From contig CACFXK010000002.1 of assembly GCA_902570125.1 (NCBI GenBank), forward strand, positions 18,380 to 82,379: 64,000 nucleotides of DNA, in the 5' to 3' direction. The DNA is from an uncultured Pelagibacteraceae bacterium (GTDB taxonomy: Bacteria > Pseudomonadota > Alphaproteobacteria > Pelagibacterales > Pelagibacteraceae). Both the position numbers and the translations under genes were made by a program. The notes under the pieces were generated by a model. That model saw only the letters and a program-made list of their open reading frames with translations. It had not been told where the DNA came from and ran no database searches. Every line of letters begins with the position of its first letter. Within the stretch, counting starts at the first letter, position 1. This document shows positions 24,335 to 37,309 of the stretch, in pieces.

Positions 24335-25461
24335 CTTTTTTTTCTATTTGAAACTTTGCATGCATCGATAAATTTTGCAGTTTCCAGTCCTTCGTCCTCA
24401 TTAGGGTAAAAATACCTTTTTTTTACATTATTTTTCAAAGAAGCTGCAAATTCACGATAAATATTTGCAAATGCATCTAAATAACCTTCAGGATGTCCAA
24501 ATTTTAATCTAGAAAATTTTTTAGACAATTCGGCATTAAAAAAACCTCTTTCAATAAATTTAACAGCACCATTAGATGGATTAAGTTTTAAATAGTTTGG
24601 ATCGTTTTGAACCCATTCCAAACTTCCTTTCGTTCCAAATATTCTTATTCGTAATCCGTAAACACCGCCTCTAGCCATCACACTTGTCCAAAACATTCCT
24701 TTAGCTCCATTATTAAAATTAATCATTACTTGAGCATTGTTGTCCATTTTAACTTTATTTGAAACTTGTTTAATATCTGCAAAAATAGTTTTACCTTTTA
24801 AACCTGATATATAAGTTGCCATATGATATGCATGGGACCCAATTTCATTCAGGACCGCTGAAGCTCCAACGATATTTTTGTCTATTTTCCATTTAAACTT
24901 TTTCTTTGCATTTTTTTGAGTGATATTTTCTCCATCTGACCAATCCTGAACATATTCAACATTTATATATTCAACTTTTCCAATTTTACCTTTTTCAACC
25001 AATACTTTTGCTTCTCTAACCATAGGATAAGCAGAATAATTATGTGTCAAAGCATACTTAATTTTTTTATTTGATTTTATTTTTTTAAATAATTTCTTAG
25101 CTTGGGCAAGATTTCCAGCAAATGGTTTATCAGAAATCACATTAATATTTTTATCAATAAATTTTTCAGCAATAATTTGGTGACTTGAAGGAGGTGTCAT
25201 TATAGCCACAACATTAATACCATCTTTTCTTTCCGCTTCTCTTTCAGCCATTTCTCTAAAATTTGAATAGCATCTCTCTTTTAAAATACCTAGGCTTTGA
25301 CCAAAGCTTTTAGATAGTTTTGAATTTCTTGAAAAAACACCAGCAACTATCTCATATTGATTATCAAATCTTGATGAAATTCTATGAACATTACCAATCC
25401 AGGATTTTGGGCCACCTCCAACTACACCAAGCTGGATTTTTTTTCCTTTAATTAATCTCAT
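24316..25461 (-). CDS. Gfo/Idh/MocA oxidoreductase (inositol/polyol-associated subfamily)
   Basis: GVVGGG..SWIG.VH, DKP, EYVQDW, EIGSHAYH, GHPEGYLDAFANIY; start moved to ATG 25461 to remove overlap with iolE. Confidence 0.85.
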   Translation of the reverse strand: MRLIKGKKIQLGVVGGGPKSWIGNVHRISSRFDNQYEIVAGVFSRNSKLSKSFGQSLGILKERCYSNFREMAEREAERKDGINVVAIMTPPSSHQIIAEKFIDKNINVISDKPFAGNLAQAKKLFKKIKSNKKIKYALTHNYSAYPMVREAKVLVEKGKIGKVEYINVEYVQDWSDGENITQKNAKKKFKWKIDKNIVGASAVLNEIGSHAYHMATYISGLKGKTIFADIKQVSNKVKMDNNAQVMINFNNGAKGMFWTSVMARGGVYGLRIRIFGTKGSLEWVQNDPNYLKLNPSNGAVKFIERGFFNAELSKKFSRLKFGHPEGYLDAFANIYREFAASLKNNVKKRYFYPNEDEGLETAKFIDACKVSNRKKRWVKIK

Positions 25462-25492
25462 GATTAAATATATCTTAACAAATAAAAAATTT

Positions 25493-26395
25493 ATGTCAGT
25501 AAAATTAGGTATAGCACCAATTGCTTGGAGTAATGATGACATGCCTGAATTAGGTGGAGATACTCCTTTAGAGCAATGTTTGTCAGAAGCAAGTAAGGCT
25601 GGATATGTTGGTATTGAATCAGGTGGTAAATTCCCAAAAACATCAAACGAATTATTACCAAAGTTAGATAAGTATAACTTAAAATTATGTTCTGGTTGGT
25701 ATAGCGGAAATCTTAGAAAAAATTCTGTTGAACAAGAAAAAAATTTAATTCAAGACCAACTGAAATTATTTAAAGATTGTGAGGCTCCGTGTATCGTTTT
25801 TGCTGAAGTTTTTGGTTCAATACAGGGTGATCCAACAAAAAAACTTTCCAATAGGCCAAAGATGACGGACCAAGAATGGAAAGATTATTGTACAAAAATT
25901 TCTGAACTTGCAAAGTATCTTGAAGATGAAGGTATGCCTTTAGCTTATCACCATCATATGGGTACAGTAATAGAAACAGAAGAAGAAACTATTAGATTAC
26001 TAGAAAACACAGATGATAGTGTAAAATTAACTTTAGATACTGGTCATATGTTATTTGCTAAGGGAAACTCAATTAATATAATTAATAAATTTAAAGAAAG
26101 AGTAATCCACATACACTGCAAAGATATTAGAGAAGAAGTATTAAAAAAAGCCCTTTCTGAAGATTTGAGTTTTAGGGACGCTTTTTTAGAAGGTGCTTTT
26201 ACGGTACCTGGTGATGGGTGTATCGACTACAAACCTCTGTTTGATATTCTAAAAAAAAATAATTATCAAGGTTGGCTTGTCGTAGAGGCTGAACAAGATC
26301 CTAAAAAAGCTAATCCACTTGAGTACGCTATCAAGGGTTACAAATATATTACTGATACTTTAAAGAAATCAAATTTAGAGATTAATAATCTATAA
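25493..26395 (+). CDS. iolE: 2-keto-myo-inositol (myo-inosose-2) dehydratase
   Basis: LGIAPIAWSNDDMPELGG, YHHHMGT, DTGH, HIHCKD, FTVPGDG, VVEAEQDP; start at ATG 25493. Confidence 0.95.
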   Translation: MSVKLGIAPIAWSNDDMPELGGDTPLEQCLSEASKAGYVGIESGGKFPKTSNELLPKLDKYNLKLCSGWYSGNLRKNSVEQEKNLIQDQLKLFKDCEAPCIVFAEVFGSIQGDPTKKLSNRPKMTDQEWKDYCTKISELAKYLEDEGMPLAYHHHMGTVIETEEETIRLLENTDDSVKLTLDTGHMLFAKGNSINIINKFKERVIHIHCKDIREEVLKKALSEDLSFRDAFLEGAFTVPGDGCIDYKPLFDILKKNNYQGWLVVEAEQDPKKANPLEYAIKGYKYITDTLKKSNLEINNL

Positions 26396-27346
26396 TTTTA
26401 CTTTTTTACTGTCTTCAAGTTTACCATCGAAAAAATCAAAAATATTTTGAATAGTTTCTTTTGCCATTCTAGTCATGCATTCCTCAGTGAATGCTGCAGC
26501 ATGAGGACTAAGGAAAACTTTGTCATTTTTTAATAAAGGATTATCAGCCTCTGGAGGCTCTACCTCAAATACATCAATTCCTGCTCCAAAAATCAAATTT
26601 TCATTCAATGCCCTATCTAAATCTTTTTCATTTATAATACCGCCTCTTGCAGCATTTATGATGATGCAGTTTTTTTTCATCGTTTTTAGAAGTTCGTAAT
26701 TTATAATATTTTTAGTTTGATCAGTTAAAGGTATATGGAGTGAGACAGCATCCATGTCTTTAATAGCTTCTGATAAATCTTCAACTTTTTTACCACCCAT
26801 TTTGCTTATTGTTTCTGAGTCTACAAATGGATCGTAAACAAAAACGTTCATTTCAAATCCTAAACATCTTTTAATCAACGCTTTTCCTATTCTTCCAAAT
26901 CCAGCAATAAGAATGTTTTTATCCCAAATCTCTATAGTTTTTGGTAATTTATTTCGTTCAGTAAATTTTCCATTTTTGACTGAATGGTCATACATACTCT
27001 TTCTTTTTGAGATACTTAAAAGCATGAAAAGAACATGTTCTGCAACTGCCACAGCATTTGCTGTTGCGGTTATTGCTACGTCGATGTTTCCTTTTTTACA
27101 GCTATTTAAATCAATATTATCGTAACCAACTCCATGTCTTGAAATTATTTTAAGGTTTTTTGCATTTTCAATTGCCTCAGCAGGTAATATCGAGGTTCTT
27201 AAAGAAACTGCATCTGCATCTACAATTTTTTGTTTCACATTTTCAACACTTAAATCTTCAACAACCTCGTAACTATAGTCGCTATTACTTTTTAATAATT
27301 CCATACCTTTTTCATGAATAGGTTGGACAATGAGAATTTTTTTCAT
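26390..27346 (-). CDS. D-isomer-specific 2-hydroxyacid dehydrogenase (SerA-like, no ACT domain)
   Basis: SRHGVGYDNID, GFGRIG, INAARGG, DVFEVEP, SPHAA. Confidence 0.88.
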   Translation of the reverse strand: MKKILIVQPIHEKGMELLKSNSDYSYEVVEDLSVENVKQKIVDADAVSLRTSILPAEAIENAKNLKIISRHGVGYDNIDLNSCKKGNIDVAITATANAVAVAEHVLFMLLSISKRKSMYDHSVKNGKFTERNKLPKTIEIWDKNILIAGFGRIGKALIKRCLGFEMNVFVYDPFVDSETISKMGGKKVEDLSEAIKDMDAVSLHIPLTDQTKNIINYELLKTMKKNCIIINAARGGIINEKDLDRALNENLIFGAGIDVFEVEPPEADNPLLKNDKVFLSPHAAAFTEECMTRMAKETIQNIFDFFDGKLEDSKKVKL

Positions 27347-27360
27347 AATTTTAAAAAAAA

Positions 27361-28350
27361 TTATATTAGTCTTGCAAGATCTCTTTTACTATTTCTAAAT
27401 GTTGGAAGTGGATATTTAAATGCATACTTTCTTGGAATACATTTATTCTTTGCCTTTTCCCACAAAGCAATCCATTGCTTGTAGTTGTGGATGGTAATAT
27501 TTTTTTTATTTTTACTTCTTACATAAAAATTGGGCAAAGGTTTCCTACCAGATGGGGTTCCAGCTCTATTGTATCTTAAATCAGCGCTAATTCTAAAATC
27601 ATTGGATATATTAGGCAATGAACAGTGAATGGAGTGTTTGTGTAAAATAATAATATCGCCAACATTAGCCTCCAGAAAAACTGGCTTGTAATTATTAAGT
27701 AGTTTACTATCTTTTATTTCTACCTGACCTCTATATCCTGATATATGATTTAATAGTCCCAATTTATTAATTTCTTTTACTGTAATCATGCATCCATTTT
27801 TTTTAGTAGTTTTAGTAAATGGAATCCAAACAGTTACCATATCAGTTAATCTTTGTCCCAAAGATGATAATACTGCTGCATCCTGATGCCATGGAGTTCT
27901 ACCTGAGAGACCATCGTGAACAGAATGTTTAGGTAATTTATTTTCGGGTTGTTTAATTCTTGTATTTTGAACTGGATTTGAGAGAATTTCTGGCCCTAAT
28001 AATTTTTCAACCACATCCAAGATTTTTTTGTGATTAATTAAATTCCATAAAGATTGAGATGCAAAATAATCACTATCTTTTTTCACGTGATCTCTTGGAA
28101 GTCTAGTATTAAAATATTGATCAAGATCGTAAATTTTTAGTTTTGAAATGTATGTGTATTTTTTTTTAAAGCTATATTTAAAAATTTTTTCTTTCAAATG
28201 CTCAGGAGCAAATTTATGAACTAAATTATCCATTACATATTCCATGTCATTTAAAATTGGTTTTAAATCTTTATTGAAATTAAGAACATTTCTTACTCTT
28301 AGGAAGCCATCTCTATCTAAAATACTCTTTAATTTAGTCTTAATTTGCAT
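27361..28350 (-). CDS. PhyH-family Fe(II)/2-oxoglutarate dioxygenase
   Basis: TPWHQD (HxD), VTVWIPF...NGCM, IHCSLPN (distal His), RISADLRY. Confidence 0.85.
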   Translation of the reverse strand: MQIKTKLKSILDRDGFLRVRNVLNFNKDLKPILNDMEYVMDNLVHKFAPEHLKEKIFKYSFKKKYTYISKLKIYDLDQYFNTRLPRDHVKKDSDYFASQSLWNLINHKKILDVVEKLLGPEILSNPVQNTRIKQPENKLPKHSVHDGLSGRTPWHQDAAVLSSLGQRLTDMVTVWIPFTKTTKKNGCMITVKEINKLGLLNHISGYRGQVEIKDSKLLNNYKPVFLEANVGDIIILHKHSIHCSLPNISNDFRISADLRYNRAGTPSGRKPLPNFYVRSKNKKNITIHNYKQWIALWEKAKNKCIPRKYAFKYPLPTFRNSKRDLARLI

Positions 28351-28355
28351 AATTA

Positions 28356-29216
28356 TTAATATTTTAGCAAATAATTCGAATCATGAAAAGATGTAAGCAT
28401 TCTTTTTTTCGTCGCAACAATATGTGGATGATATTCAAGATTTTTATATTTCCATATCACTGGCTTGTTAAGAGCATAACTTCCATAAATAAAAAATCTT
28501 TTTGGACAGTTTTTTTCCTTAAATCTATTTACTCCGTGATAAGAATTTGGAGTAGATTTAAAGAAAATTACACTTCCCTGTTTTGGTGTGAATTCCTTTA
28601 ATTTATCAAGTTCATTAGTCTTAGGAAACCTTCTAAAGCTTTTTCTAGGGTTTTTGTTTACTTTTTTCCTATATAAAGTAAGTGATCCTCCATTTTTTTT
28701 TGGTATGTCGGTTAAATAGATCAAAAAATTATATAGCCTGTTCACATCATCTCTATGTGGTCTCAATCTATATCCTCCTTTAGATACTGAGAAATCAATA
28801 TCTAAATTTAAATTTGGGTTTTTATAATCTTTACCTAGTAGTTTTTTTAGCTCTTGGGAATTTACTTTTCTTTTAAGTGTATATTTTTTTTTATTAAATT
28901 TTTTTGGTTTAAACAAACTTTCCCAAGTATTTGCCTTAAATTCTTTTTTAAATTTTTTATCAATTTTTTTATAAAAGGATTGTGTATTGAAAGTAGCAAA
29001 AAGTTTTTTTGAGATTTTAGAACTTGAGATATATTTGTTGAAATTTTTTGATCCTTTATTAATCCTACTTCTGCCACCCATAATCATATCATCAAAACTT
29101 TTTGAATTAGTTATTTCTTTAATTAAAGAATAACACACTTTTTTACTGATTATTTGTTCTCCAACAATGACTTGGAAGTTTGATTTAATTTTCTTTAGTT
29201 TACTAATTTTCAGCAT
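28356..29216 (-). CDS. 2OG-Fe(II) oxygenase superfamily protein
   Basis: LRPHRD (HxD), NFLIYL..GGSL, NSYHGV (distal His), downstream Arg (KRFFIY). Confidence 0.8.
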   Translation of the reverse strand: MLKISKLKKIKSNFQVIVGEQIISKKVCYSLIKEITNSKSFDDMIMGGRSRINKGSKNFNKYISSSKISKKLFATFNTQSFYKKIDKKFKKEFKANTWESLFKPKKFNKKKYTLKRKVNSQELKKLLGKDYKNPNLNLDIDFSVSKGGYRLRPHRDDVNRLYNFLIYLTDIPKKNGGSLTLYRKKVNKNPRKSFRRFPKTNELDKLKEFTPKQGSVIFFKSTPNSYHGVNRFKEKNCPKRFFIYGSYALNKPVIWKYKNLEYHPHIVATKKRMLTSFHDSNYLLKY

Positions 29217-30161
29217 TTAGCTGTACATGCCCTCTTTTACTTTAATCATTTTGTACATAAGGTCATTTAATGGTGTGGCTATTCCATGTTTTTTTCCTAT
29301 TTTAGACACGGCGCCACTTATGAAATCAATTTCAGTTTTTCTTTTATAAAGCACATCAAAAGCCATTGAAGACTTATTTGTTTGTTTTGAGTCAACAATT
29401 TTATTAAACATAAATAAACACTCATCTTCAGAAACATTAACGCCATCTGCTAAAGCAACGTCTCTTGTTTCTAAAATTATCTTTTTTCCTAAACTTCTAG
29501 AAACGTCGTTGGCATTATTATTTATGTAAAGATCAGTATGATGTAGATCAAAAATAGCTGAAAGTGGGCCTATTGCGGTTAAAGCAAAAAGTTTCATCCA
29601 TTTTCTTTTTTTTACATCCTCAGCAGCAATCATTTCCAAATTATGAGCAGTAAAGGTGTCTGCAATTTCGGTTATTCTATTAGTTATCCCACCATCATAT
29701 TCTCCAATCCAAGAGGGTAGAGAAGCATGATTCATAATATGACCAGGACCTAAGATATTTGATGCTTGAGTTGTTGTTCCTCCGATTACTTTTTCATCGC
29801 CAACAATACTTTTAATTATAGCTTCATGTCCAATTCCATTTTGAAAAGACATAAAAACTGTTTTATCGTTAATAATATTTTTAATACTTTTTAAAGCAGG
29901 CTCTAGAGCTGTTGCTTTACACATCACTATCACAGCATCAACTTTTCCAATTGTAGATGGATCTGATGTTGCTGGTACTTTGATAAATCTATCACCACCA
30001 TGACCATCCATCTTTAGACCATTTTTATTTATTTCATCAACATGCTCTTTCCAAACGTCAATGAGCGTTACATTTAGACCTTTTTCTGCTAGTAGGCCTC
30101 CAAATAGACAACCCATTGCCCCTGCACCAAGAACCGCAACTTTTAAATCTTTATTATTCAT
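29217..30161 (-). CDS. Ketopantoate reductase (PanE/ApbA)-family 2-oxoacid reductase
   Basis: LGAGAMG, FQNGIG, WMKL (catalytic Lys), KSSM, TEIDFISG; substrate-site Asn residues altered. Confidence 0.85.
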   Translation of the reverse strand: MNNKDLKVAVLGAGAMGCLFGGLLAEKGLNVTLIDVWKEHVDEINKNGLKMDGHGGDRFIKVPATSDPSTIGKVDAVIVMCKATALEPALKSIKNIINDKTVFMSFQNGIGHEAIIKSIVGDEKVIGGTTTQASNILGPGHIMNHASLPSWIGEYDGGITNRITEIADTFTAHNLEMIAAEDVKKRKWMKLFALTAIGPLSAIFDLHHTDLYINNNANDVSRSLGKKIILETRDVALADGVNVSEDECLFMFNKIVDSKQTNKSSMAFDVLYKRKTEIDFISGAVSKIGKKHGIATPLNDLMYKMIKVKEGMYS

Positions 30162-30224
30162 TTTTAAAATCGAAATATATTTATGTAAAAAAATTATGCA
30201 ATATATTATGTAACTAATTTATAT

Positions 30225-31193
30225 ATGGAATTAAAAATAGAAAAAGGAATTTTCAAAAAATTTAAGTTAGAAGAAATATCAAACGCATTAGAAAAAGGTC
30301 TGTCAAAGAATTATGACAGTGTAAAAACAGAAGTAATTGATTGTCCAAATTTAAGAAACTGGGATTGTCCGTCTGAAGGCATGAGTGGTAACCAAAGGAT
30401 AATCGATGTTGGAGGAGAGCCTTACATGCATGATCCTAAATATCTTGGAACAGAATTTGATTATTTTGAAATCTCTAAAATGATTGGGTCAGAAAGATCG
30501 TACGCACTTGGCGCTGGATCTGGAGCAATGTCTTGCCTGGATGGACACTGTGGAGAATTGATTATAAATGAAAACTTTATTACAAAAGAAAATAAATCTT
30601 TAATTGCTAGGGTAGGAAAAGATAAAGAATGTATAGTAGAGGACTATACTGCAAGCAAACATGGCGGCCTGGGTAATGTTTATTATTCAGATGGTGTTAA
30701 AGGAAAAGTTATATATTTAAAGATAAAAAAAAGAATTGGAAAACAAGGTTCATTACCTCAATCAATAAGAGCAGTACTTTCAGAAAATCTTAAAATTGGG
30801 AATAAAAATCATATTGCTCTCGCTGGTGTATTTAGAGTTTTGAATGGAAAAATAAGATCACATGTACAACCAGATTATAAGGATATAAAACATGAATATT
30901 ATGATCCACAATTGATGAAATGCACAAAAGATTTTCTACAATTTTATGAGCCTGTTGGACCAAAATTACAATGCTATACTGTTTTATGGACTGGTGATCC
31001 AACGGGAGGAGAATTAAATTTAAGAGAGTCCGGTGAGCATACTCACTTTCACTCATATGAGCATAAGAATGATGCTGGACATTATCATTTTGATGTTTCA
31101 CCAGATGAAATTGAATATGAAGGGTACTTTAATATTGCACAAGAAGTATATAGAGTGAATAATATCTATAAAGAATTAAAAAATATAAAATGA
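30225..31193 (+). CDS. DUF1907 / C11orf54 (PTD012)-family Zn protein, putative beta-keto sugar acid decarboxylase
   Basis: Collinear with human C11orf54 as remembered: LEEI..ALEKGL..NY..V...VIDCPNL, RIIDVGGEPY, HVQP, EHTHFHS...GHYHFD..PD.IEYEGYF. Confidence 0.88.
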   Translation: MELKIEKGIFKKFKLEEISNALEKGLSKNYDSVKTEVIDCPNLRNWDCPSEGMSGNQRIIDVGGEPYMHDPKYLGTEFDYFEISKMIGSERSYALGAGSGAMSCLDGHCGELIINENFITKENKSLIARVGKDKECIVEDYTASKHGGLGNVYYSDGVKGKVIYLKIKKRIGKQGSLPQSIRAVLSENLKIGNKNHIALAGVFRVLNGKIRSHVQPDYKDIKHEYYDPQLMKCTKDFLQFYEPVGPKLQCYTVLWTGDPTGGELNLRESGEHTHFHSYEHKNDAGHYHFDVSPDEIEYEGYFNIAQEVYRVNNIYKELKNIK

Positions 31194-32005
31194 AAAAGAT
31201 TTATACTTGGGCCGCTCAACCTGCTAGCAGAACTCTTACAGTTGATGATCTTAAAAAAGCAAAAGGAAAAAAAAAATTTACTCAAGTCACAGCCAATACA
31301 ATAGATGAAGCTGATGCCGCAGAGAAGGCTGGGTTTGACATGATAATCTGCAATGCTTTTAATGTGAAACAGGTGAGAGAGGGATCAAAAAATCTATTTT
31401 TAACTGCTGCGCTAGTATTAAATAAGTTTGTCACTTCGGAAGATATCATGAGAGGAGCGTTTGAAGCCCTAGAAAATGGAGCTGATGCTGTAATGACACC
31501 TAGAAGTATGAAGATCATAGAAATGCTGGCTAATGAAGATGTTCCAGTTATGGGACATCTTGGTTTAGTTCCAAGAAAATCAACGTGGATTGGTGGTTTA
31601 AGAGCAGTAGGAAAAAATAGTGAAGAGGCACATGAACTTTTTTTAAAATTTAAAAGATTAGAAGATGCAGGAGCTTTTTCTGCTGAATGTGAGGTTATCC
31701 CAGAAAATGTAATGGGAGAAATCTCTAAAAGAACGAATATAGTTACAGTATCTTTAGGTTCAGGAAAGAAAGCTGATGTAATGTACCTGTTCATGGAAGA
31801 CATATGTGGAGATACTTTAAATCCTCCAAGACATTCAAAAGCTTATGGAAATTTATTAAAATTAAAAAATGAAATAAAAGTTGAGAGAGTTCGAGCTCTT
31901 AAGGCATTCAAAAAAGATTCAATGGCAGGAAAATTTCCAGGAAAAAAACAATCTTCAAATTTAAATAAAAAAGAATTCGAGTCTTTTCTTGATAAGCTTG
32001 ATTAA
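31190..32005 (+). CDS. PanB (ketopantoate hydroxymethyltransferase)-like protein, degenerate
   Basis: VPVMGHLGLVP, LEDAGAF, ECEVIP, SLGSG...D retained; GDS, DLPF and KIEGG motifs missing. Confidence 0.8.
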   Translation: MKKIYTWAAQPASRTLTVDDLKKAKGKKKFTQVTANTIDEADAAEKAGFDMIICNAFNVKQVREGSKNLFLTAALVLNKFVTSEDIMRGAFEALENGADAVMTPRSMKIIEMLANEDVPVMGHLGLVPRKSTWIGGLRAVGKNSEEAHELFLKFKRLEDAGAFSAECEVIPENVMGEISKRTNIVTVSLGSGKKADVMYLFMEDICGDTLNPPRHSKAYGNLLKLKNEIKVERVRALKAFKKDSMAGKFPGKKQSSNLNKKEFESFLDKLD

Positions 32006-32793
32006 TAAGTTTCAGATTCTTTTTTGCTTATTGAGCCTTTCATTTTTTCAACAATTGCTTTAGCACCTGCGCTCATAGCTCTTTGATCTGCACCAATAGT
32101 TACAAAGTTAAAACCTTTGTCGATCATTTTTTGTGCGTACTCTGGAGTTCCATTATGAATTCCTGCAAATATATTATTTTTTTTGGCATGCTCTAATATT
32201 CTTAATATTTCTGAATAAGCTTTTGTATCTTCTGCTCTGTCAAACCCAGGCTTTTCTCCTATTGCTAAACTTAAGTCAGCTGGACCAATATATATTCCAT
32301 CTACGCCATCTGTTGACATAATCTCATCTAATTTATCTAATGACTCTTTTGTTTCAATCATAGCTAATTTTAAAATTTCATCATTTGCATGGTCAGCATA
32401 ATCAGCTCCACCATAAATCAATCCTCTAACAGGACCAAAACTTCTATATCCTCTTGGAGGATACATACAAGCTTGAACAAATCTTTCCGCCTCTTCTTTG
32501 TTACTTACCATTGGACATATAATTCCATAACAACCAGCGTCTAAAATTTTCATTATTTGGCCTGGTTCATTCCAATTTACTCTAGCAAGAGGAGTTACAT
32601 CAGTTGATGAAATTGTTTGAAGCATTGGAAGTGCATTTGTGTAATCAACAAGTCCATGTTGCATATCTACAGTTAGAGAGTCCCAACCTTGATGCGCCAT
32701 AACTTCTGCTGATACAGTGCTTGGTATTTGTAACCAACCATTTACAACAGGCTTACCATCAGCCATCATTTGTTTGACTTTATTTTTTCTCAT
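32002..32793 (-). CDS. HpcH/HpaI-family class II pyruvate aldolase (GarL/RhmA-like)
   Basis: VDMQHG, PLARV, ILDAG, CPMV, YPPRGYRSFG, MIET, YIGPADL. Confidence 0.9.
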   Translation of the reverse strand: MRKNKVKQMMADGKPVVNGWLQIPSTVSAEVMAHQGWDSLTVDMQHGLVDYTNALPMLQTISSTDVTPLARVNWNEPGQIMKILDAGCYGIICPMVSNKEEAERFVQACMYPPRGYRSFGPVRGLIYGGADYADHANDEILKLAMIETKESLDKLDEIMSTDGVDGIYIGPADLSLAIGEKPGFDRAEDTKAYSEILRILEHAKKNNIFAGIHNGTPEYAQKMIDKGFNFVTIGADQRAMSAGAKAIVEKMKGSISKKESETY

Positions 32794-34235
32794 TAATAAT
32801 TGAGACCGAAGTGAGTATACTTAACGTTCAAATAATCTTTGATAGCCATTGAACCACCTTCTCTTCCATAACCTGTTTGTTTTATTCCTCCAAAAGGTAC
32901 TTCAGCAAATGCAATTGTTGGATGGTTCACTGCGCATGTTCCAGTTTCCATTTTTTCTGAGACTTTGTGTGCTTTTTCTAAAGAATTAGTGTAAATATAG
33001 CTTGCTAAACCAAGGTCATTATCATTTGCTCTTTCCACAACTTCATCTGTGTCTTTAAAAGTAAGCAATGGAACTAAAGGTCCGAATGGCTCTTCTTTAG
33101 CAATTGTAAAATTATCTTTAACATTGTCAAAAACAGTTGGTTCATAGAAATATCCTTTATTAAAACCAGCTGGTCTCTTTCCCCCACATAAAACTGTTGC
33201 TCCCTCACTTTTAGTTTTTTCTACTAATGCCTCTATTTCATTTAATCTTTTTTCTGTAGTTAAAGGTCCTAGAATTGTATCTTCATCCATTCCGTTACCA
33301 ACTTTCAGTTTAGTAACCTTTTCAACTAATTTTTTAGCAAATTCATCTTTTTTACTTTCATGAATATAAAATCTTGCTGGTGATATACAAACTTGACCAT
33401 TATTCCTAAATTTAGCAGTAATTGCCATGTCGGTTACCTTGTTAATATCTACGTCGTCAAAAACAATGAAAGGTGAATGGCCACTTAATTCCATTGTAAC
33501 TCTTTGGACTTTTTCAGCAGCTTGTTTTAAAATTAGTTTTCCAACTCTTGTTGAACCAGTTATAGAAACCTTTTTTACTATGTCAGATGATATTAATTGA
33601 GATGAGATTTTAGCTGGATCACCAGATAATAAATTTACTACTCCTGGAGGAACGCCCGCATCATTTATAATATTCATAAGTTCCATTACACTACCTGGAG
33701 TAATTACATCAGGCTTACAAATTACTGAGCATCCTGCAGCTAAAGCAGTGGAAATTTTTCTTGAGGATAAAACTATTGGAAAGTTCCATGGTATTAATCC
33801 AGCAACAACTCCAACAGGTTCATATTTTACATACATTCTTGTATGTTCAAATCTACTTTCAACTATCTGACCATAAATTCTTTTTGTTTCTTCAGAGTTC
33901 CACTCAAAAATATCTGCAGCTCCTCCAACTTCCCCTTTTGCTTCTGATAGTGGCTTTCCAACTTCTAATGTTAACCACTTAGCCAAATCATCAGTTCTCT
34001 CTCTCATAAGGTCGGCAATTTTTCTTATAATTTTTGATCTTTGCCAAGGTGGAGTATTTCTCCAAACTTCTAGACCTTTTTCTGCAGACTTAAGTGCTTT
34101 ATTTACATCTTTTTCACCTGCTTTAGATGCTTTACCTAAAACTTCTTCTGTTGCAGGATTTAAAACATCATAAGTTTCATTATTTTGTGATGCTTGCCAT
34201 TTGCCATCAATGAATTGTCCAAATTTGCTATACAT
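32793..34235 (-). CDS. NAD-dependent aldehyde dehydrogenase (SSADH / alpha-ketoglutarate semialdehyde dehydrogenase type)
   Basis: PWNFP, TGSTRVG, TMELSGH, KFRNNGQVCISP, EEPFGP, PFGGIKQTGYGREGG. Confidence 0.9.
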   Translation of the reverse strand: MYSKFGQFIDGKWQASQNNETYDVLNPATEEVLGKASKAGEKDVNKALKSAEKGLEVWRNTPPWQRSKIIRKIADLMRERTDDLAKWLTLEVGKPLSEAKGEVGGAADIFEWNSEETKRIYGQIVESRFEHTRMYVKYEPVGVVAGLIPWNFPIVLSSRKISTALAAGCSVICKPDVITPGSVMELMNIINDAGVPPGVVNLLSGDPAKISSQLISSDIVKKVSITGSTRVGKLILKQAAEKVQRVTMELSGHSPFIVFDDVDINKVTDMAITAKFRNNGQVCISPARFYIHESKKDEFAKKLVEKVTKLKVGNGMDEDTILGPLTTEKRLNEIEALVEKTKSEGATVLCGGKRPAGFNKGYFYEPTVFDNVKDNFTIAKEEPFGPLVPLLTFKDTDEVVERANDNDLGLASYIYTNSLEKAHKVSEKMETGTCAVNHPTIAFAEVPFGGIKQTGYGREGGSMAIKDYLNVKYTHFGLNY

Positions 34236-34290
34236 AATTTTTATTTTGTGGTTTATTAGTTGAATATTTGAAGAGAATATAACTAGAAAA

Positions 34291-36135
34291 ATGAGAAAAA
34301 TAAAGCTTACTTGCGCGCATGCATTGGTTAAACATTTAATAGCTCAGAAAGTCTATATTGATGGTCAAGTTAAGCCTTTGTTTCCTGGTGTATTCGGTAT
34401 TTTTGGACATGGAAATGTAGCCTGTCTAGGACAAGCATTAGAAGAAAATAAAGAGCAACTTCCAACTTTCAGAGGTCATCACGAACAAAATATGGCTTTA
34501 ACAGGTGTTGCTTATGCAAGAGCTAAAAGAAGAAAGCAAATTTTTATTGCAACAAGTTCGGTTGGACCAGGATCTACAAATCTAGTTACAGCATCAGCTG
34601 TAGCAATGAGTAATAGATTGCCAATTTTATTTTTACCTGGAGACACTTACGCAAATAGAATGCCTGATCCTGTATTACAACAAGTGGAACATTTTTCAAA
34701 TCCTGGAATGACTGCTAACGACTCATTTAAACCAGTTACAAAATATTTTGATAGAATTACAAGACCAGAACAAATATTACAGTCACTTCCTCAAGCAATT
34801 CAAATCATGTTAGATCCAGCAGAGTGTGGACCTGCATGTTTATCTTTGTGCCAAGATGTACAAGGTGAAACTTTTGAGTATCCAGAAGAATTTTTTAAAG
34901 AAAGAATTCATTATATAAGAAGACCTAGACCTGACGATTTTCAAATCAAACAAGCAGTAGAAAAAATTAAAAATTCGAAAAAACCTATTATAATTTCTGG
35001 AGGGGGAGTATTTTATTCTGATGCTATGGATGAGTTAGCCAATTTTGCAATTAAACATAATATACCAGTAACTCAAACGGTTATGGGATATTCAACAATG
35101 AAAAAAGATCATTCTCATTTTGTAGGACCAATAGGTGGCTTAGGTGGTAAGGCAGCAAATAACTTAGCAAAAGAAACTGATTTAGCAATCTGCGTAGGAA
35201 CTAAGCTTGCAGATTTTACAACTGGCTCGTGGGCTAATTTTGAAAATCCTAAATTTAAATTAGTTTCAATTAATATAGCAAGACATGATGCTAATAAACA
35301 TTTAGGAGAAGCAGTTATAGGTGATGCAAAAGTTTCCTTAACAGAATTATCTAATGCTGTTGGAGATTGGAAATCATCTGATAGCTGGTATAAAAAATCA
35401 CAAGATGAGTTAAAATCTTGGAATGAATATGTAGATAAAGAAAGTGGCCCAACAAATCAAGAATTGCCAAGTTACGCTCACGCTGTTGGAGCAATTTATA
35501 GGAATTCAGATCCAACTGATATAGCAGTTACAGCAGCCGGAGGTTTGGTCGGAGAAGTTGTTCAAGTGTGGCGTCCAAAAGAGTTAAATACTCATGAAAC
35601 AGAGTGGGGATTTAGTTGCATGAGTTATGAAATTTCTGGTGCTCTTGGTATAAAAATGGCCAATCCTGATAAAGACGTAATTGCTTTTGTTGGCGATGGA
35701 TCATACCTACTTAACAATTCAGATATATATTCTTCAGTAATTACTAATAATAAATTAATAATCATTGTGTGTGATAATGGAGGTCATGCTGTTATAAATA
35801 GACTTCAATTGTTCAAGGGTGGAAAAGAATTTAATTGTTTGTTTAACTCTTCAAATATTCAAAACTCCATAGATGTAAATTTCGCTCAACATGCAGCAAG
35901 TATGGGAGCAAAATCAGAACATGTTTCTAGTATTTCAGAATTAGAAGAAGCATTTAAAAGAGCAAAACAATCAGATGTAACTTATGTTATATCAATTAAA
36001 ACACATAGTTACGAATGGCTTGAAGGATCAGCTTATTGGGAAAGCCCTACACTTGAGATACCAACAACAAAAGAGAACGAGGAAGCATTAAAACTTCACA
36101 AAGAAGGAAAATCAAAACAGAGACAAGGTGTTTAA
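34291..36135 (+). CDS. iolD: 3D-(3,5/4)-trihydroxycyclohexane-1,2-dione acylhydrolase (ThDP-dependent)
   Basis: FGIFGHGNV, TSSVGPGSTN, PDPVLQQVE, NDSFKPV..YFDRITRPEQ, EWGFSCMSYEI, GDGSY...DNGG..VINRLQ. Confidence 0.9.
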   Translation: MRKIKLTCAHALVKHLIAQKVYIDGQVKPLFPGVFGIFGHGNVACLGQALEENKEQLPTFRGHHEQNMALTGVAYARAKRRKQIFIATSSVGPGSTNLVTASAVAMSNRLPILFLPGDTYANRMPDPVLQQVEHFSNPGMTANDSFKPVTKYFDRITRPEQILQSLPQAIQIMLDPAECGPACLSLCQDVQGETFEYPEEFFKERIHYIRRPRPDDFQIKQAVEKIKNSKKPIIISGGGVFYSDAMDELANFAIKHNIPVTQTVMGYSTMKKDHSHFVGPIGGLGGKAANNLAKETDLAICVGTKLADFTTGSWANFENPKFKLVSINIARHDANKHLGEAVIGDAKVSLTELSNAVGDWKSSDSWYKKSQDELKSWNEYVDKESGPTNQELPSYAHAVGAIYRNSDPTDIAVTAAGGLVGEVVQVWRPKELNTHETEWGFSCMSYEISGALGIKMANPDKDVIAFVGDGSYLLNNSDIYSSVITNNKLIIIVCDNGGHAVINRLQLFKGGKEFNCLFNSSNIQNSIDVNFAQHAASMGAKSEHVSSISELEEAFKRAKQSDVTYVISIKTHSYEWLEGSAYWESPTLEIPTTKENEEALKLHKEGKSKQRQGV

Positions 36136-36144
36136 AAACTTTAT

Positions 36145-37302
36145 ATGAATAAAGTTTTTAAAATTGGCTTAATAGGCTGCGGACATATTGCTGAAACATA
36201 TTTTAGAGCTGAAAAATATTTTAATAATATAAAAATTATTAAGTGTGCTGATATTAATATGCAAGCTGCAAAACGTTGTGCATTGAATTATGGGATAAAA
36301 TTTTTAACTGTAAACGAACTTCTTAAAGACAAAGAAATTGAAATTATTTTAAACCTTACAATTCCAAAAGCACATTATCTAATTTCTAAAAAAGCTTTAG
36401 CAAATGGAAAACATGTATACTCTGAAAAGCCTTTAGCAATAAATTTAAAAGATGGAAAAGATTTAATAAAACTTTCAAAGAAAAATAAACTTTATTTAGG
36501 TAATGCTCCTGACACTTTTTTGGGTGGTGGAATACAAAAATCAAAAGAACTCGTTGAAAAAAATTCTATCGGAAAAATAAAATTAGGTAATGCAGTTTTT
36601 GCTTTTCCTGGAATTGAGTCTTATCACCCTAACCCTGAACCTTGGTTTGCAAAAAAAGAAGGAGGTCCTGTTATTGATATGGGACCTTATTATATTACTG
36701 CTTTAGTAAATCTTTTAGGACCTGCAAGAAAAGTAATTAGCACCATCATTCAAGGTCAAAAATATAGGACTATAGGAATAGGACCAAAAAAAGGAAAAAA
36801 ATTTAAGGTAGAATGTCCAACTACATATTTATCCACAATCACTTTTAAAAATAACTCTGTTATAAGATTAACATTATCATTTGATGTAATAGCTCATCAA
36901 AGAAATCATATTGAATTATATGGAGAAAAGGGGTCAATGATTGTTCCAGATCCAAATATGTTTGGCGGATCAGTGTTAATCTGTAATAAATTAGGTGATA
37001 ACTGGAGAGAATTTAAGACCACAAAAATGTCTTTAGGACGTATTAACATTAGAACACAAAGTTCTAGAGCTAACGAAGCGCCAACCAATGCAAACTATCG
37101 AGGAGCTGGATTGTCTGAGATGGCATATTCAATTGAGAACAAAAGAAAACATTTATGTAGTGGTGAAATATCTTTACATGTATTAGAAATTATAACTTCA
37201 ATTATGAAAGCAGCTAAATCTGGAAAATCTGTATCAGTAAATACAAACTGCGCAAAACCAAAAAAGTTTTTAGAAATAGATGCAAAGAAATTACTTAAAT
37301 AA
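36145..37302 (+). CDS. Gfo/Idh/MocA oxidoreductase
   Basis: IGCGHI, NLTIPKAH, YSEKPLA, GNAPDTFLGGG, GGPVIDMGPYY. Confidence 0.88.
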   Translation: MNKVFKIGLIGCGHIAETYFRAEKYFNNIKIIKCADINMQAAKRCALNYGIKFLTVNELLKDKEIEIILNLTIPKAHYLISKKALANGKHVYSEKPLAINLKDGKDLIKLSKKNKLYLGNAPDTFLGGGIQKSKELVEKNSIGKIKLGNAVFAFPGIESYHPNPEPWFAKKEGGPVIDMGPYYITALVNLLGPARKVISTIIQGQKYRTIGIGPKKGKKFKVECPTTYLSTITFKNNSVIRLTLSFDVIAHQRNHIELYGEKGSMIVPDPNMFGGSVLICNKLGDNWREFKTTKMSLGRINIRTQSSRANEAPTNANYRGAGLSEMAYSIENKRKHLCSGEISLHVLEIITSIMKAAKSGKSVSVNTNCAKPKKFLEIDAKKLLK

Positions 37303-37309
37303 ATAGAAA

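What the first reader, a model, noticed from the sequence alone, without database searches (positions are those of the whole stretch)
30225..31193. Full-length bacterial homologue of eukaryotic C11orf54 (DUF1907) inside a sugar-acid island
Seen: a 322-aa protein collinear end to end with human C11orf54 as remembered (LEE...KGL..N...V..V.DCP.L; RI..VGG.PY; EHTHF.S...GHYH.D..PD..EY.GYF), with the three Zn-binding His intact. Known (from memory): the family is mainly animal/fungal, and C11orf54 was recently assigned as the 3-dehydro-L-gulonate decarboxylase producing L-xylulose in the inositol/glucuronate (uronate) pathway. Inference: a copy between iolE and iolD, in an island that also carries an ascorbate-linked module, suggests a non-phosphorylating beta-keto sugar acid decarboxylation that bacteria normally do on the 6-phosphate with UlaD/SgbH. 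Candidate substrates are 3-dehydro-L-gulonate, 2,3-diketo-L-gulonate or a deoxy analogue derived from the IolD product. It may also be a case of inter-domain gene transfer or mark the bacterial origin of the family.
Basis: partly seen in the sequence, partly recalled or inferred. Interest (0 to 1): 0.85.

Follow-up and report, generated by a model that had tools for sequence, protein, structure and literature searches.

The report
SAR11 C11orf54-type decarboxylase with reductase partner
A marine SAR11 bacterium carries a genuine relative of the human enzyme that makes L-xylulose; it belongs to a bacterial branch of the family whose steady partner is a PanE-like reductase, and it sits in a five-gene optional cassette inserted into, but separable from, the inositol genes.

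Summary
ORF 30225-31193 (+) is a full-length DUF1907/C11orf54 protein: Pfam E=4e-58, human 1XCR E=3e-36, AF2 pLDDT 96.9, TM 0.82-0.85 to 1XCR. It keeps the three zinc histidines (H272, H274, H286) and both residues essential in the human enzyme (H213, R267).

The gene lies between iolE and iolD, but as part of a five-gene cassette: PhyH, 2OG oxygenase and PanE-like on one strand, DUF1907 and PanB-like on the other. IolD-positive SAR11 genomes without DUF1907 lack exactly this cassette. In another SAR11 genus the same five genes lie away from iolD, beside a Liv-type ABC transporter.

The recurrent partner is the ApbA/PanE-like reductase. It is adjacent in 4 of 6 non-SAR11 bacterial subclades sampled and fused to DUF1907 in at least 11 clusters, one with a spliceosomal-type intron. 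The SAR11 copy groups with other bacteria (92/93), so it is not a recent eukaryote-to-SAR11 transfer.

Most likely function: the reductase makes an alpha-hydroxy-beta-keto acid and DUF1907 decarboxylates it without phosphorylation. The substrate is unresolved.

First readers flagged the same protein in three other genomes of this scan.

The parts
30225..31193 (+). DUF1907 / C11orf54-family Zn-dependent decarboxylase, 322 aa. Zn ligands H272, H274, H286; catalytic H213 and R267.
   Evidence: Pfam PF08925 E=4.2e-58, full length. 1XCR E=3e-36. Residue conservation in 195 sequences. AF2 pLDDT 96.9, Foldseek 1XCR TM 0.82-0.85.
29217..30161 (-). ApbA/PanE-family NAD(P)-dependent oxidoreductase, 314 aa. 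It is the conserved partner of DUF1907 and a paralogue of the housekeeping pantothenate genes.
   Evidence: PF02558+PF08546, TIGR00745 237 bits. It is 39-43% identical (E 1e-76 to 1e-79) to the ApbA half of DUF1907-ApbA fusion proteins and 43-44% to ApbA genes next to DUF1907 in other bacteria. The best PDB PanE reaches only E=2.5e-35. Adjacent in all SAR11 genome loci displayed and in 40/55 metagenome loci. A canonical PanB and PanC lie elsewhere in the genome, as does a second ApbA-family gene (not shown to be the housekeeping PanE).
30162..30224 (.). 63-bp AT-rich divergent intergenic region between the PanE-like and DUF1907 starts; presumed shared control region.
   Evidence: Sequence read directly. 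No promoter scan was run.
31190..32005 (+). PanB-fold protein, 271 aa. Its start overlaps the DUF1907 stop by 4 bp (ATGA). It lacks two Mg ligands of PanB. It is a variable member of the cassette.
   Evidence: PF02548 123 bits, but TIGR00222 98 bits against a cut-off of 208. Aligned with E. coli PanB 1m3u, D84 becomes A and E114 becomes P, and the N-terminal 65 residues of PanB do not align. Overlap read. Missing in loci L052-L064, L071, L075 and L082; present in 25/40 metagenome loci.
28356..29216 (-). Fe(II)/2-oxoglutarate oxygenase (2OG-FeII_Oxy_3), cassette member; absent in some SAR11 loci.
   Evidence: Pfam E=2.5e-10. Synteny. Orthologue at 65% identity in the genus-g8 cassette.
27361..28350 (-). 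PhyH-family Fe(II)/2-oxoglutarate oxygenase, cassette member.
   Evidence: Pfam PF05721 E=3.6e-16. Orthologue at 59-60% identity in the genus-g8 cassette. PhyH-family genes near DUF1907 in other phyla are not orthologous to it.
26390..27346 (-). D-2-hydroxyacid dehydrogenase. It is the left flank and part of the core SAR11 iol island, not of the cassette.
   Evidence: Pfam and NCBIfam. It directly abuts HpcH in IolD-positive, DUF1907-negative genomes L183-L186.
32002..34235 (-). HpcH/HpaI-type aldolase (32002-32793) and aldehyde dehydrogenase (32793-34235). They form the right flank and belong to the core iol island, not the cassette.
   Evidence: Pfam and NCBIfam. Retained next to IolD in cassette-free genomes.
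34291..36135 (+). IolD (context).
   Evidence: TIGR04377 792 bits, cut-off 715.
25460..26395 (+). IolE (context).
   Evidence: PF01261; TIGR04379 413 bits, cut-off 290.

Best explanation
The ORF encodes a Zn-dependent decarboxylase of the C11orf54 (beta-keto-L-gulonate decarboxylase) family. It belongs to a distinct bacterial and marine-protist branch of that family. It works as the second half of a two-enzyme module.

Inferred mechanism: the divergently transcribed ApbA/PanE-family NAD(P)-oxidoreductase produces an alpha-hydroxy-beta-keto carboxylic acid. It could do so by reducing the 2-keto group of a 2,3-diketo acid or by oxidising a hydroxy acid. DUF1907 binds the carboxylate, the alpha-hydroxyl and the beta-carbonyl on zinc and removes C1 as CO2. 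The product is a ketol or ketose, and no phosphorylation is involved.

In this genome the pair sits in a five-gene accessory cassette: PhyH oxygenase, 2OG oxygenase and PanE-like on one strand, DUF1907 and PanB-like on the other. The cassette has been inserted between the 2-hydroxyacid dehydrogenase and the HpcH aldolase of the core SAR11 inositol island. It is a self-contained unit that is not required for the IolD route.

Shown: family membership, catalytic residues, fold, cassette boundaries, and the partnership with ApbA by adjacency, fusion and orthology of both halves. Inferred: the decarboxylase activity, the order of the two steps and the substrate. The candidates I rate highest are 3-dehydro-L-gulonate made from 2,3-diketo-L-gulonate, or a related C4-C6 keto-aldonate. 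In SAR11 the acid may first be hydroxylated by the two oxygenases.
For: Family, residues and fold: with the roles of the human residues from PMC12337341.

Partner, by adjacency:
- An ApbA gene is adjacent, often with overlapping stop and start, in P0123, P0131, P0305, P0378, P0402 and P0397. That is 4 of 6 non-SAR11 subclades sampled.
- It is adjacent in all SAR11 genome loci displayed and in 40/55 metagenome loci.

Partner, by fusion:
- P0125, P0135, P0142 and P0157 are DUF1907-ApbA-ApbA_C proteins.
- All 7 'longer' homologues found are the same fusion.

Partner, by orthology: the window PanE-like protein is 37-44% identical to the fused and the adjacent ApbA proteins. Against solved PanE structures it reaches E=2.5e-35 at best.

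Tree: an ApbA-linked clade is separated from the metazoan/3HCDH-fusion type with 100/99 support.

Cassette as an indel: four IolD-positive, DUF1907-negative genomes have 2HADH directly next to HpcH-ALDH-IolD. In genus g8 the same five genes cluster on other contigs than IolD, with a Liv-type ABC transporter.

Acid uptake systems accompany the pair: TRAP; Liv-type ABC.

Precedent: the rotifer 3HCDH(CRYL1)-DUF1907 fusion links a dehydrogenase to this decarboxylase.
Against: - No activity has been measured for any member of this clade.
- Eight positions are invariant in the ApbA-linked clade but differ in the metazoan-type group (E65, H69, G110, S176, Y225, D227, F237, W255), and the metazoan C-terminal Asp is absent. 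The substrate may therefore differ from 3-dehydro-L-gulonate.
- ApbA is not universal. The Caldilineaceae-type subclade has ADP_ribosyl_GH-DUF1907-MR_MLE. P0379 has an SDR instead. One SAR11-like group (L154) has no PanE-like gene within 8 kb; there DUF1907 is divergent from a 259-aa ORF with no Pfam hit (its counterpart in L187 is weakly HpaH-like) plus an SDR.
- The roles of the two oxygenases and of the PanB-like protein, which lacks Mg ligands, are unexplained.
- All SAR11 synteny is among relatives and so is not independent evidence.
Confidence: 0.55

Rival explanations
1. It is a strict functional orthologue of animal C11orf54. The PanE-like enzyme would stand in for CRYL1 as L-gulonate 3-dehydrogenase. 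DUF1907 would make L-xylulose from 3-dehydro-L-gulonate, and the pentulose would then enter the pentose phosphate pathway. This would be a bacterial glucuronate-xylulose pathway.
For: All five catalytic and metal residues of the human enzyme are conserved. ApbA and 3HCDH share the Rossmann plus 6PGDH-like architecture; weak 3HCDH_N hits appear on ApbA proteins. TRAP transporters and RpiR regulators, typical of sugar-acid loci, accompany the pair. A true XylB lies in the same island in 3 of 5 closed DUF1907-positive genomes.
Against: The protein sits in a clade separate from the metazoan type (100/99) with eight clade-specific invariant residues. This genome, 86% complete, has only GlpK as FGGY kinase and no class II aldolase/epimerase. 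XylB is absent from 2 of 5 closed DUF1907-positive genomes, and where present it is 11 kb away beside a different sugar transporter. From general knowledge, characterised ApbA-family enzymes act at C2 rather than C3. The two oxygenases and the PanB-like protein have no role in that route.
Confidence: 0.15
2. The cassette is the missing lower part of the SAR11 inositol pathway. It would process the IolD product 5-deoxy-D-glucuronate, or a reduced or hydroxylated derivative, in place of IolB, IolC and IolJ.
For: IolD occurs in 182/401 Pelagibacterales genomes searched, but IolB (PF04962) in 1/401. No IolB, DUF2090 or IolC was found in this genome. The cassette lies between iolE and iolD. In an unrelated lineage DUF1907-ApbA lies next to iolG, E, D, C and B.
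Against: In genus g1 at least 67 IolD-positive genomes lack DUF1907 (150 IolD-positive against 83 DUF1907-positive). The cassette-free islands are otherwise intact. In genus g8 the cassette and IolD are on different contigs. The lineage with adjacent iol genes already has a complete IolB/IolC pathway. From chemistry, the 2-deoxy analogue lacks the alpha-hydroxyl that H213 and the zinc are expected to bind.
Confidence: 0.1
3. The cassette degrades a branched or aliphatic hydroxy/keto acid or an amino-acid-like compound (pantoate-, acetolactate- or hydroxy-amino-acid-like). The two oxygenases would hydroxylate it. The PanE-like enzyme would interconvert the 2-oxo and 2-hydroxy forms. DUF1907 would act like an acetolactate decarboxylase.
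For: PanE-like and PanB-like paralogues, two Fe/2OG hydroxylases, and Liv-type (HAAT, Peripla_BP_6) ABC transporters accompany DUF1907 in three lineages. The fold is acetolactate-decarboxylase-like. An acyl-CoA synthetase, enoyl-CoA hydratase, a CitE-like/HpcH-family lyase, MR_MLE and an SDR accompany DUF1907 in two lineages.
Against: H213 and R267 are the residues that distinguish the gulonate-type enzyme from acetolactate decarboxylases, according to PMC12337341. The PanB-like protein lacks Mg ligands and is dispensable in many loci. TRAP, RpiR and GFO/MocA contexts in other lineages point to sugar acids.
Confidence: 0.12
4. It is an ester hydrolase, as the family was formerly annotated, or a non-catalytic protein.
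For: Human PTD012 showed weak p-nitrophenyl acetate esterase activity, which led to the old family annotation (PMC12337341 and PMC12435205).
Against: That activity was weak, and the decarboxylase assignment has superseded it. The metal site and the substrate-binding His and Arg are under strict conservation. The partner is an oxidoreductase, by operon and by fusion.
Confidence: 0.03

Closest known systems
Human C11orf54 / PTD012 = beta-keto-L-gulonate (3-dehydro-L-gulonate) decarboxylase, EC 4.1.1.34, PDB 1XCR (PMC12337341)
   Same: Same Pfam family over the full length, 33% structure-based identity, TM 0.82-0.85. Zn His triad and the essential His and Arg are conserved. Single-domain protein of about 320 aa. 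Functionally linked to a Rossmann/6PGDH-like dehydrogenase.
   Different: Separate clade (100/99). Two-residue 'SG' insert between the Arg and the HTH motif. Eight clade-specific invariant residues. No C-terminal Asp. The partner is an ApbA/PanE-family enzyme rather than CRYL1 (3HCDH). It is encoded in a bacterial accessory cassette with two Fe/2OG oxygenases. The substrate is unproven.
Rotifer 3HCDH(CRYL1)-DUF1907 fusion proteins (PMC12337341; P0149 here)
   Same: A dehydrogenase fused to the same decarboxylase domain, implying consecutive steps.
   Different: Here the fused or adjacent dehydrogenase is ApbA/PanE-type and lies C-terminal to DUF1907. The fusions fall in a different clade of the DUF1907 tree.
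[quoted passage not shown] 4BT2, 4BT3)
   Same: Same fold and three-His zinc site. Decarboxylates an alpha-hydroxy-beta-keto acid.
   Different: Only 10-17% identity and TM 0.4-0.58. No ALDC-family Pfam hit. According to PMC12337341, the ALDC Arg and Glu are replaced by His and Arg.
UlaD / SgbH 3-keto-L-gulonate-6-phosphate decarboxylases together with YiaK (2,3-diketo-L-gulonate reductase) and the YiaMNO TRAP transporter of E. coli (from general knowledge)
   Same: Possible functional analogy: a TRAP-imported keto-aldonate is reduced and then decarboxylated to a pentulose.
   Different: Unrelated folds. That route requires phosphorylation before decarboxylation. No kinase is part of the module here. 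The Ldh_2 gene next to one DUF1907-ApbA pair is not YiaK-like.
Ketopantoate reductase PanE/ApbA and D-mandelate/2-hydroxyacid dehydrogenases of the same family (e.g. 3HWR, 3WFI)
   Same: The partner protein has both ApbA domains and the invariant Lys (K190), Asn (N108), and Glu and Ser positions.
   Different: It forms a specific subfamily that co-occurs with DUF1907. It is a paralogue of the genome's other ApbA-family gene.

Membership tests
DUF1907 / C11orf54 (PTD012) family, PF08925 | Full-length match to the family profile above the curated cut-off | tested here: met
   197.4 bits against a cut-off of 25, positions 1-285 of 285; the same result in the whole-genome search.
DUF1907 / C11orf54 (PTD012) family, PF08925 | Three-histidine zinc site (human H266, H268, H278) | tested here: met
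   H272, H274 and H286 align and are conserved in 188-189 of 195 sequences. Metal binding itself was not tested.
DUF1907 / C11orf54 (PTD012) family, PF08925 | Four-layer alpha-beta-beta-alpha fold of 1XCR | tested here: met
   AF2 pLDDT 96.9; Foldseek 1XCR E=1.3e-29, TM 0.82/0.85, rmsd 2.8.
[quoted passage not shown] | Essential substrate-binding residues H217 and R263 | tested here: met
   H213 (190/195) and R267 (186/195).
[quoted passage not shown] | Conserved C-terminal Asp (D315), which tunes catalytic efficiency in metazoan orthologues | tested here: not met
   The protein ends ...KELKNIK. The C-terminus is variable in the bacterial clade.
[quoted passage not shown] | Orthology: same clade as the characterised metazoan enzymes | tested here: not met
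   It falls in a clade separated at 100/99 from the group holding the 3HCDH-fusion type. Eight clade-specific invariant residues. No named metazoan sequence was in the tree, so the other group is identified only through the rotifer-type fusion and MMETSP rows.
[quoted passage not shown] | Decarboxylation of 3-dehydro-L-gulonate to L-xylulose | not testable with these tools
   Requires an enzyme assay.
[quoted passage not shown] | Pathway context: L-gulonate 3-dehydrogenase (CRYL1/3HCDH) upstream, and xylulose reductase and kinase downstream | tested here: inconclusive
   The partner is ApbA-type, not 3HCDH. No xylulokinase was found in this 86%-complete genome. XylB is present in the island of 3/5 closed relatives.
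Alpha-acetolactate decarboxylase family | Match to the ALDC sequence family with its catalytic Glu and Arg | tested here: not met
   DUF1907 is the only Pfam hit. Similarity to ALDC is structural only, at 10-17% identity. The residue swap is described in PMC12337341.
myo-Inositol catabolic (iol) pathway enzymes | Co-inheritance with IolD/IolE as part of the pathway | tested here: not met
   At least 67 IolD-positive genomes of genus g1 lack DUF1907. Cassette-free islands are otherwise intact. The genus-g8 cassette lies on other contigs than IolD.

The most novel reading that the evidence does not exclude
The DUF1907 plus ApbA-type reductase pair, split in bacteria and fused in marine eukaryotes, is a previously unrecognised phosphorylation-independent route. 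It would convert an abundant dissolved keto-sugar acid, most attractively 2,3-diketo-L-gulonate (the seawater breakdown product of vitamin C), through 3-keto-L-gulonate into a neutral pentulose. About a quarter of SAR11 species would then have an optional way to harvest this carbon. The two oxygenases of the SAR11 cassette would widen the range of acids that can enter the route.
Probability: 0.2. Interest if true: 0.75.

Novelty: new variant of a known kind. Interest (0 to 1): 0.58.

Why it matters
C11orf54 was assigned its reaction only in 2025. The bacterial members are mentioned in the literature held here only in passing ('also found in some bacteria', PMC12435205) and carry no functional annotation.

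This work shows a coherent bacterial and protist branch of the family whose dehydrogenase partner differs from the animal one (ApbA/PanE-type instead of CRYL1). The pairing is supported by gene fusion.

It also shows that in SAR11, the most abundant marine heterotrophs, the gene is part of a mobile five-gene cassette present in roughly a quarter of the species searched.

This gives a concrete, cheap experiment, two soluble enzymes or one natural fusion, to find a new substrate for this decarboxylase family and a new piece of SAR11 carbon use. It also corrects the tempting reading that the gene fills the IolB/C/J gap of the SAR11 inositol pathway.

Tried and rejected
- **PhyH as a conserved partner.** PhyH-family genes lie near DUF1907 in SAR11, Caldilineaceae-type, P0379 and Spirochaetaceae-type loci. 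The proteins are not orthologous (pairwise BLASTP E 1e-2 to 1e-4), so I do not count this as evidence.
- **TRAP solute-binding protein as a clue to the ligand.** The best PDB matches reach only E about 1e-34 and spread over many specificities. Not informative.
- **The Ldh_2 gene next to ApbA-DUF1907 in L102 as a YiaK-like 2,3-diketogulonate reductase.** Its best PDB relatives are generic type-2 malate/lactate, ureidoglycolate and sulfolactate dehydrogenases. No support.
- **Cassette as alternative pantoate biosynthesis.** The genome has a canonical PanB, a PanC and a second ApbA-family gene elsewhere, and the PanB-like protein lacks Mg ligands. Rejected.
- **Scans for non-SAR11 loci.** The genome-contig scan with the single protein and the metagenome-contig scan with a diverse alignment both returned only SAR11-like loci, because the best 80 by similarity to the window protein are kept. 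Non-SAR11 contexts therefore rest on 12 individual look-ups.
- **The AT-rich fusion-bearing contig as a giant virus.** No relative was found in IMG/VR. Its origin stays open.
- **Complex prediction for DUF1907 with the PanE-like protein.** Nothing can be said about physical binding.
- **Literature.** Searches for SAR11 with inositol and for DUF1907 found no paper on the bacterial proteins.
- **Rooting with acetolactate decarboxylase.** Not attempted, because 10-17% identity is too low for a reliable root.
Full report
**1. The observation**

The window is AT-rich (30% GC). It belongs to a 1.27-Mb, 86%-complete Pelagibacteraceae (SAR11) assembly.

An ORF of 322 codons runs from ATG 30225 to TGA 31193 on the + strand.
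- It matches Pfam DUF1907 over the whole profile: E=4.2e-58, 197 bits against a cut-off of 25.
- It matches human C11orf54/PTD012 (PDB 1XCR) over residues 14-313, E=3.1e-36.
C11orf54 was shown in 2025 to be the 3-dehydro-L-gulonate (beta-keto-L-gulonate) decarboxylase that forms L-xylulose. Its zinc ligands are H266, H268 and H278. H217 and R263 are essential, and the C-terminal D315 tunes efficiency (PMC12337341).
- In a 195-sequence family alignment the window protein has all five residues: H213, R267, H272, H274 and H286, each conserved in 186-190 sequences. R267 was mis-paired in the pairwise alignment because about two thirds of the family carry a two-residue 'SG' insert before the HTH motif.
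- The AlphaFold2 model built on 34 homologues is confident (pLDDT 96.9). Its best PDB match is 1XCR (E=1.3e-29, TM 0.82/0.85), followed only by acetolactate decarboxylases.

The one metazoan feature not kept is the C-terminal Asp.

**2. The surroundings in the window**

Gene order from Pfam and NCBIfam:
- IolG-like (23318-24334, -)
- GFO/MocA (24316-25542, -)
- IolE (25460-26395, +)
- D-2-hydroxyacid dehydrogenase (26390-27346, -)
- PhyH oxygenase (27361-28350, -)
- 2OG-Fe(II) oxygenase (28356-29216, -)
- PanE/ApbA-like reductase (29217-30161, -)
- a 63-bp gap
- DUF1907 (30225-31193, +)
- PanB-like (31190-32005, +; ATGA overlap with DUF1907)
- HpcH/HpaI-type aldolase (32002-32793, -)
- aldehyde dehydrogenase (32793-34235, -)
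- IolD (34291-36135, +)
- GFO/MocA, a second 2-hydroxyacid dehydrogenase, a ribose-type ABC transporter, RbsD and ribokinase
- an acid-sugar dehydratase (MR_MLE), a PdxA-like gene and TctCBA

'Between iolE and iolD, in a sugar and sugar-acid island' is therefore literally true. The immediate neighbours, however, are a PanE-like and a PanB-like gene.

**3. The cassette is a separable unit**

- Among Pelagibacterales species representatives at least 80% complete, DUF1907 is in 104/401. It occurs in three genera of one family (83/297, 16/43 and 4/7) and in 0/27 of the sister family.
- IolD is in 182/401. IolB is in 1/401.
- At least 67 IolD-positive genomes of the window's genus therefore lack DUF1907.
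- I fetched four such genomes. Their island is IolG-like, (GFO), IolE, 2-hydroxyacid dehydrogenase, HpcH, ALDH, IolD, GFO and so on. That is the window's island minus exactly five genes: PhyH, 2OG oxygenase, PanE-like, DUF1907 and PanB-like.
- In a second genus (g8) the same five genes (59-76% identity) cluster together but on other contigs than IolD. There they are interleaved with a Liv-type ABC transporter (Peripla_BP_6 binding protein, two permeases, two ATPases) and an EamA exporter. DUF1907 is divergent from a weakly HpaH-like 259-aa gene, an SDR and an HDAC-like amidohydrolase.
- Within the cassette the PanB-like gene and the 2OG oxygenase are sometimes missing.
- The PanB-like protein has lost two Mg ligands of PanB: D84 becomes A and E114 becomes P against 1m3u.
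- The genome keeps a canonical PanB and PanC and a second ApbA-family gene elsewhere.

I conclude that the five genes form an accessory cassette inserted into the iol island. They are not a step of the IolE-IolD route.

**4. The conserved partner**

A search of 1.84 billion cluster representatives found only 535 relatives. The closest non-SAR11 ones were informative.

*Fusions*
- P0125, P0135, P0142 and P0157 are DUF1907-ApbA-ApbA_C fusion proteins of about 640 aa.
- All seven 'longer' homologues in the 5.8-billion-protein collection have the same architecture.
- One fusion gene (L087-L089, 52% GC, Tara Oceans contigs) is interrupted by an 88-nt GT...AG intron inside the conserved WMK motif of the ApbA part, so its host is a eukaryote.
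- Another fusion lies on a 25%-GC, gene-dense 71-kb contig of unknown origin.

*Adjacency in bacteria*

An ApbA gene directly precedes or follows DUF1907 in these contexts:
- P0123: Liv-type ABC, a FAA-hydrolase-like gene, ApbA, DUF1907, acyl-CoA synthetase, enoyl-CoA hydratase, MR_MLE, an HpcH-family lyase (weak C-C_Bond_Lyase hit) and an SDR.
- P0131 and P0305: iol genes (IolE, IolD, IolC and IolB in both; the GFO/MocA IolG-type gene was seen only in P0305), RpiR, TRAP DctPQM, DUF1907, ApbA; in P0305 a phytase follows.
- P0402: two GFO/MocA genes, RpiR, a TonB-dependent receptor, TRAP, ApbA, DUF1907.
- P0378: Ldh_2, Liv-type ABC, ApbA, DUF1907.
- P0397, Spirochaetaceae-type: ApbA, DUF1907, then two PhyH genes.

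It is absent in the Caldilineaceae-type subclade (ADP-ribosylglycohydrolase, DUF1907, MR_MLE) and in P0379 (permease, DUF1907, SDR). That makes 4 of 6 non-SAR11 subclades.

*Orthology of the partner*

The window's PanE-like protein is 43-44% identical to these adjacent ApbA proteins and 37-43% to the fused domains (E about 1e-76 to 1e-79). Its best match to a solved PanE is E=2.5e-35. Both halves of the fusion are therefore orthologous to the SAR11 gene pair.

*Within SAR11*

The PanE-like gene is the divergent neighbour in all genome loci displayed and in 40 of 55 metagenome loci with enough flank. The exceptions are a group of about 72% identity where it is displaced by 2-4 kb or absent within 8 kb.

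**5. Phylogeny**

A careful maximum-likelihood tree of 57 rows gives these supports (ultrafast bootstrap / SH-aLRT):
- SAR11: 100/100
- the other bacteria: 97/97
- the two together: 92/93
- the ApbA fusions as their own clade: 100/98
- the group containing the rotifer-type 3HCDH fusion and other eukaryote-like rows, split off: 100/99 (quick tree of 99 rows)

Eight positions are invariant in the ApbA-linked clade but differ in the other group: E65, H69, G110, S176, Y225, D227, F237 and W255.

The SAR11 gene is therefore of bacterial type. A recent eukaryote-to-SAR11 transfer is not supported. The pair as a whole has crossed between bacteria and marine eukaryotes at some point. I could not root the tree reliably, so the direction is open.

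Named bacterial holders are Pelagibacteraceae, Caldilineaceae and Spirochaetaceae.

**6. Mechanism**

*Shown:* the catalytic apparatus of a beta-keto-acid decarboxylase is intact, and an ApbA-family oxidoreductase is its evolutionary partner.

*Inferred:* the oxidoreductase supplies the alpha-hydroxy-beta-keto acid that DUF1907 decarboxylates. This mirrors CRYL1 and C11orf54, which are consecutive in animals and fused in rotifers.

From general knowledge, characterised ApbA enzymes interconvert 2-oxo and D-2-hydroxy acids. The chemically simplest scheme is therefore reduction of the 2-keto group of a 2,3-diketo acid. For example, 2,3-diketo-L-gulonate would give 3-keto-L-gulonate. Alternatively, oxidation of a C4 dicarboxylic hydroxy acid such as tartrate would give oxaloglycolate. 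A CRYL1-like C3 oxidation of an aldonate cannot be excluded.

TRAP or Liv-type uptake systems in the same operons fit an imported carboxylate. No kinase belongs to the module, so the decarboxylation would be non-phosphorylative, unlike UlaD/SgbH.

*What argues against simply naming the substrate 3-dehydro-L-gulonate:*
- the separate clade and the clade-specific residues;
- the missing C-terminal Asp;
- the unexplained oxygenases and PanB-like protein;
- the lack of an obvious fate for L-xylulose in this genome. GlpK is the only FGGY kinase, and there is no class II aldolase/epimerase, at 86% completeness;
- a true XylB lies in the same island in only 3 of 5 closed DUF1907-positive relatives, 11 kb away and next to another sugar transporter.

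**7. Comparison with what is known, and novelty**

The protein is a member of the DUF1907/C11orf54 family. It cannot be filed as an orthologue of the metazoan enzyme, because the clade test and the C-terminal Asp test are not met.

It resembles acetolactate decarboxylase in fold only.

Public databases already call the SAR11 proteins 'DUF1907 domain-containing protein'. [quoted passage not shown]

In the six papers in the library that mention DUF1907, I found no description of the following:
- the ApbA partnership and fusion;
- the bacterial clade;
- the SAR11 cassette and its independence from IolD.

I therefore rate it a new variant of a known kind, of moderate to good interest.

First readers of this scan flagged the same protein in three other genomes. 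Notes on this window about the PanB-like protein, the PanE-like protein and the missing IolB/C/J agree with what I tested.

**8. Limits**

- Non-SAR11 contexts rest on twelve look-ups.
- All SAR11 synteny is among kin.
- No activity is known for any member of this clade.

Noticed in passing
window 23318-38332; Pelagibacterales survey: IolD is present in 182/401 Pelagibacterales genomes searched, but IolB (PF04962) in only 1/401. This genome has no IolB, DUF2090 or IolC. The core island shared by cassette-free genomes is IolG-like, IolE, 2-hydroxyacid dehydrogenase, HpcH/HpaI-type aldolase, SSADH-like ALDH, IolD, GFO. SAR11 therefore appears to use a non-canonical lower inositol route, possibly through an aldolase and an aldehyde dehydrogenase.
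   Followed up: partly
L087:1510-3533 (also L088, L089): A DUF1907-ApbA fusion gene on 52%-GC Tara Oceans contigs is split by an 88-nt GT...AG intron inside the conserved WMK motif. This marks a marine eukaryote as host of the fusion.
   Followed up: partly
L090:4431-6347 (71-kb contig) and L091: A 638-aa DUF1907-ApbA fusion lies on a 25%-GC, gene-dense contig beside a 1061-aa helicase, a sulfotransferase, DegT, an epimerase, a 2OG oxygenase and an ATP-grasp gene. The origin (AT-rich bacterium, giant virus or other) is unknown. No relative was found in IMG/VR.
   Followed up: partly
window 31190-32005: The PanB-fold protein is translationally coupled to DUF1907. Its Mg-ligand positions D84 and E114 of E. 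coli PanB are replaced by Ala and Pro, and its N-terminal 55 residues do not align with PanB. It is conserved at 73% identity between two SAR11 genera yet missing in many loci.
   Followed up: partly
L072:11007-11423 (HIMB1444-type clade): An extra 138-aa ORF with a weak SarA/Rot (MarR-like) hit lies between DUF1907 and the PanB-like gene in the SAR11 clade at about 79% identity. It may be a cassette-specific regulator.
   Followed up: no
L187:10946-13394; L154:6396-7918; P0123 contig: In genus g8 and in a SAR11-like group at about 72% identity, a 259-aa ORF plus an SDR lies divergent from DUF1907. The L187 copy is weakly HpaH-like (NCBIfam, 48.6 bits). A gene with a faint FAA_hydrolase hit precedes ApbA in the P0123 contig. 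An acyl-CoA synthetase, enoyl-CoA hydratase, MR_MLE and an HpcH-family (CitE-like) lyase set recurs with DUF1907 in L154 and P0123.
   Followed up: partly
L200:4990-6438 (G091) and the same place in G075 and G084: A true xylulokinase (about 500 bits, cut-off 380) with a second sugar ABC transporter lies in the same island in 3 of 5 closed DUF1907-positive genomes. It is absent from the window. The island looks like a hotspot of variable sugar-use genes.
   Followed up: partly
G000:C3:40278-41090 (outside the window): The PanC match (224 bits, above the cut-off) contains one in-frame TAG. This could be a sequencing error or a disrupted pantoate-beta-alanine ligase.
   Followed up: no
L093:11962-14073: In the lineage with iolGEDCB, RpiR, TRAP, DUF1907 and ApbA, a phytase and a metallophosphatase follow directly. 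This suggests a phytate-to-inositol context there.
   Followed up: no
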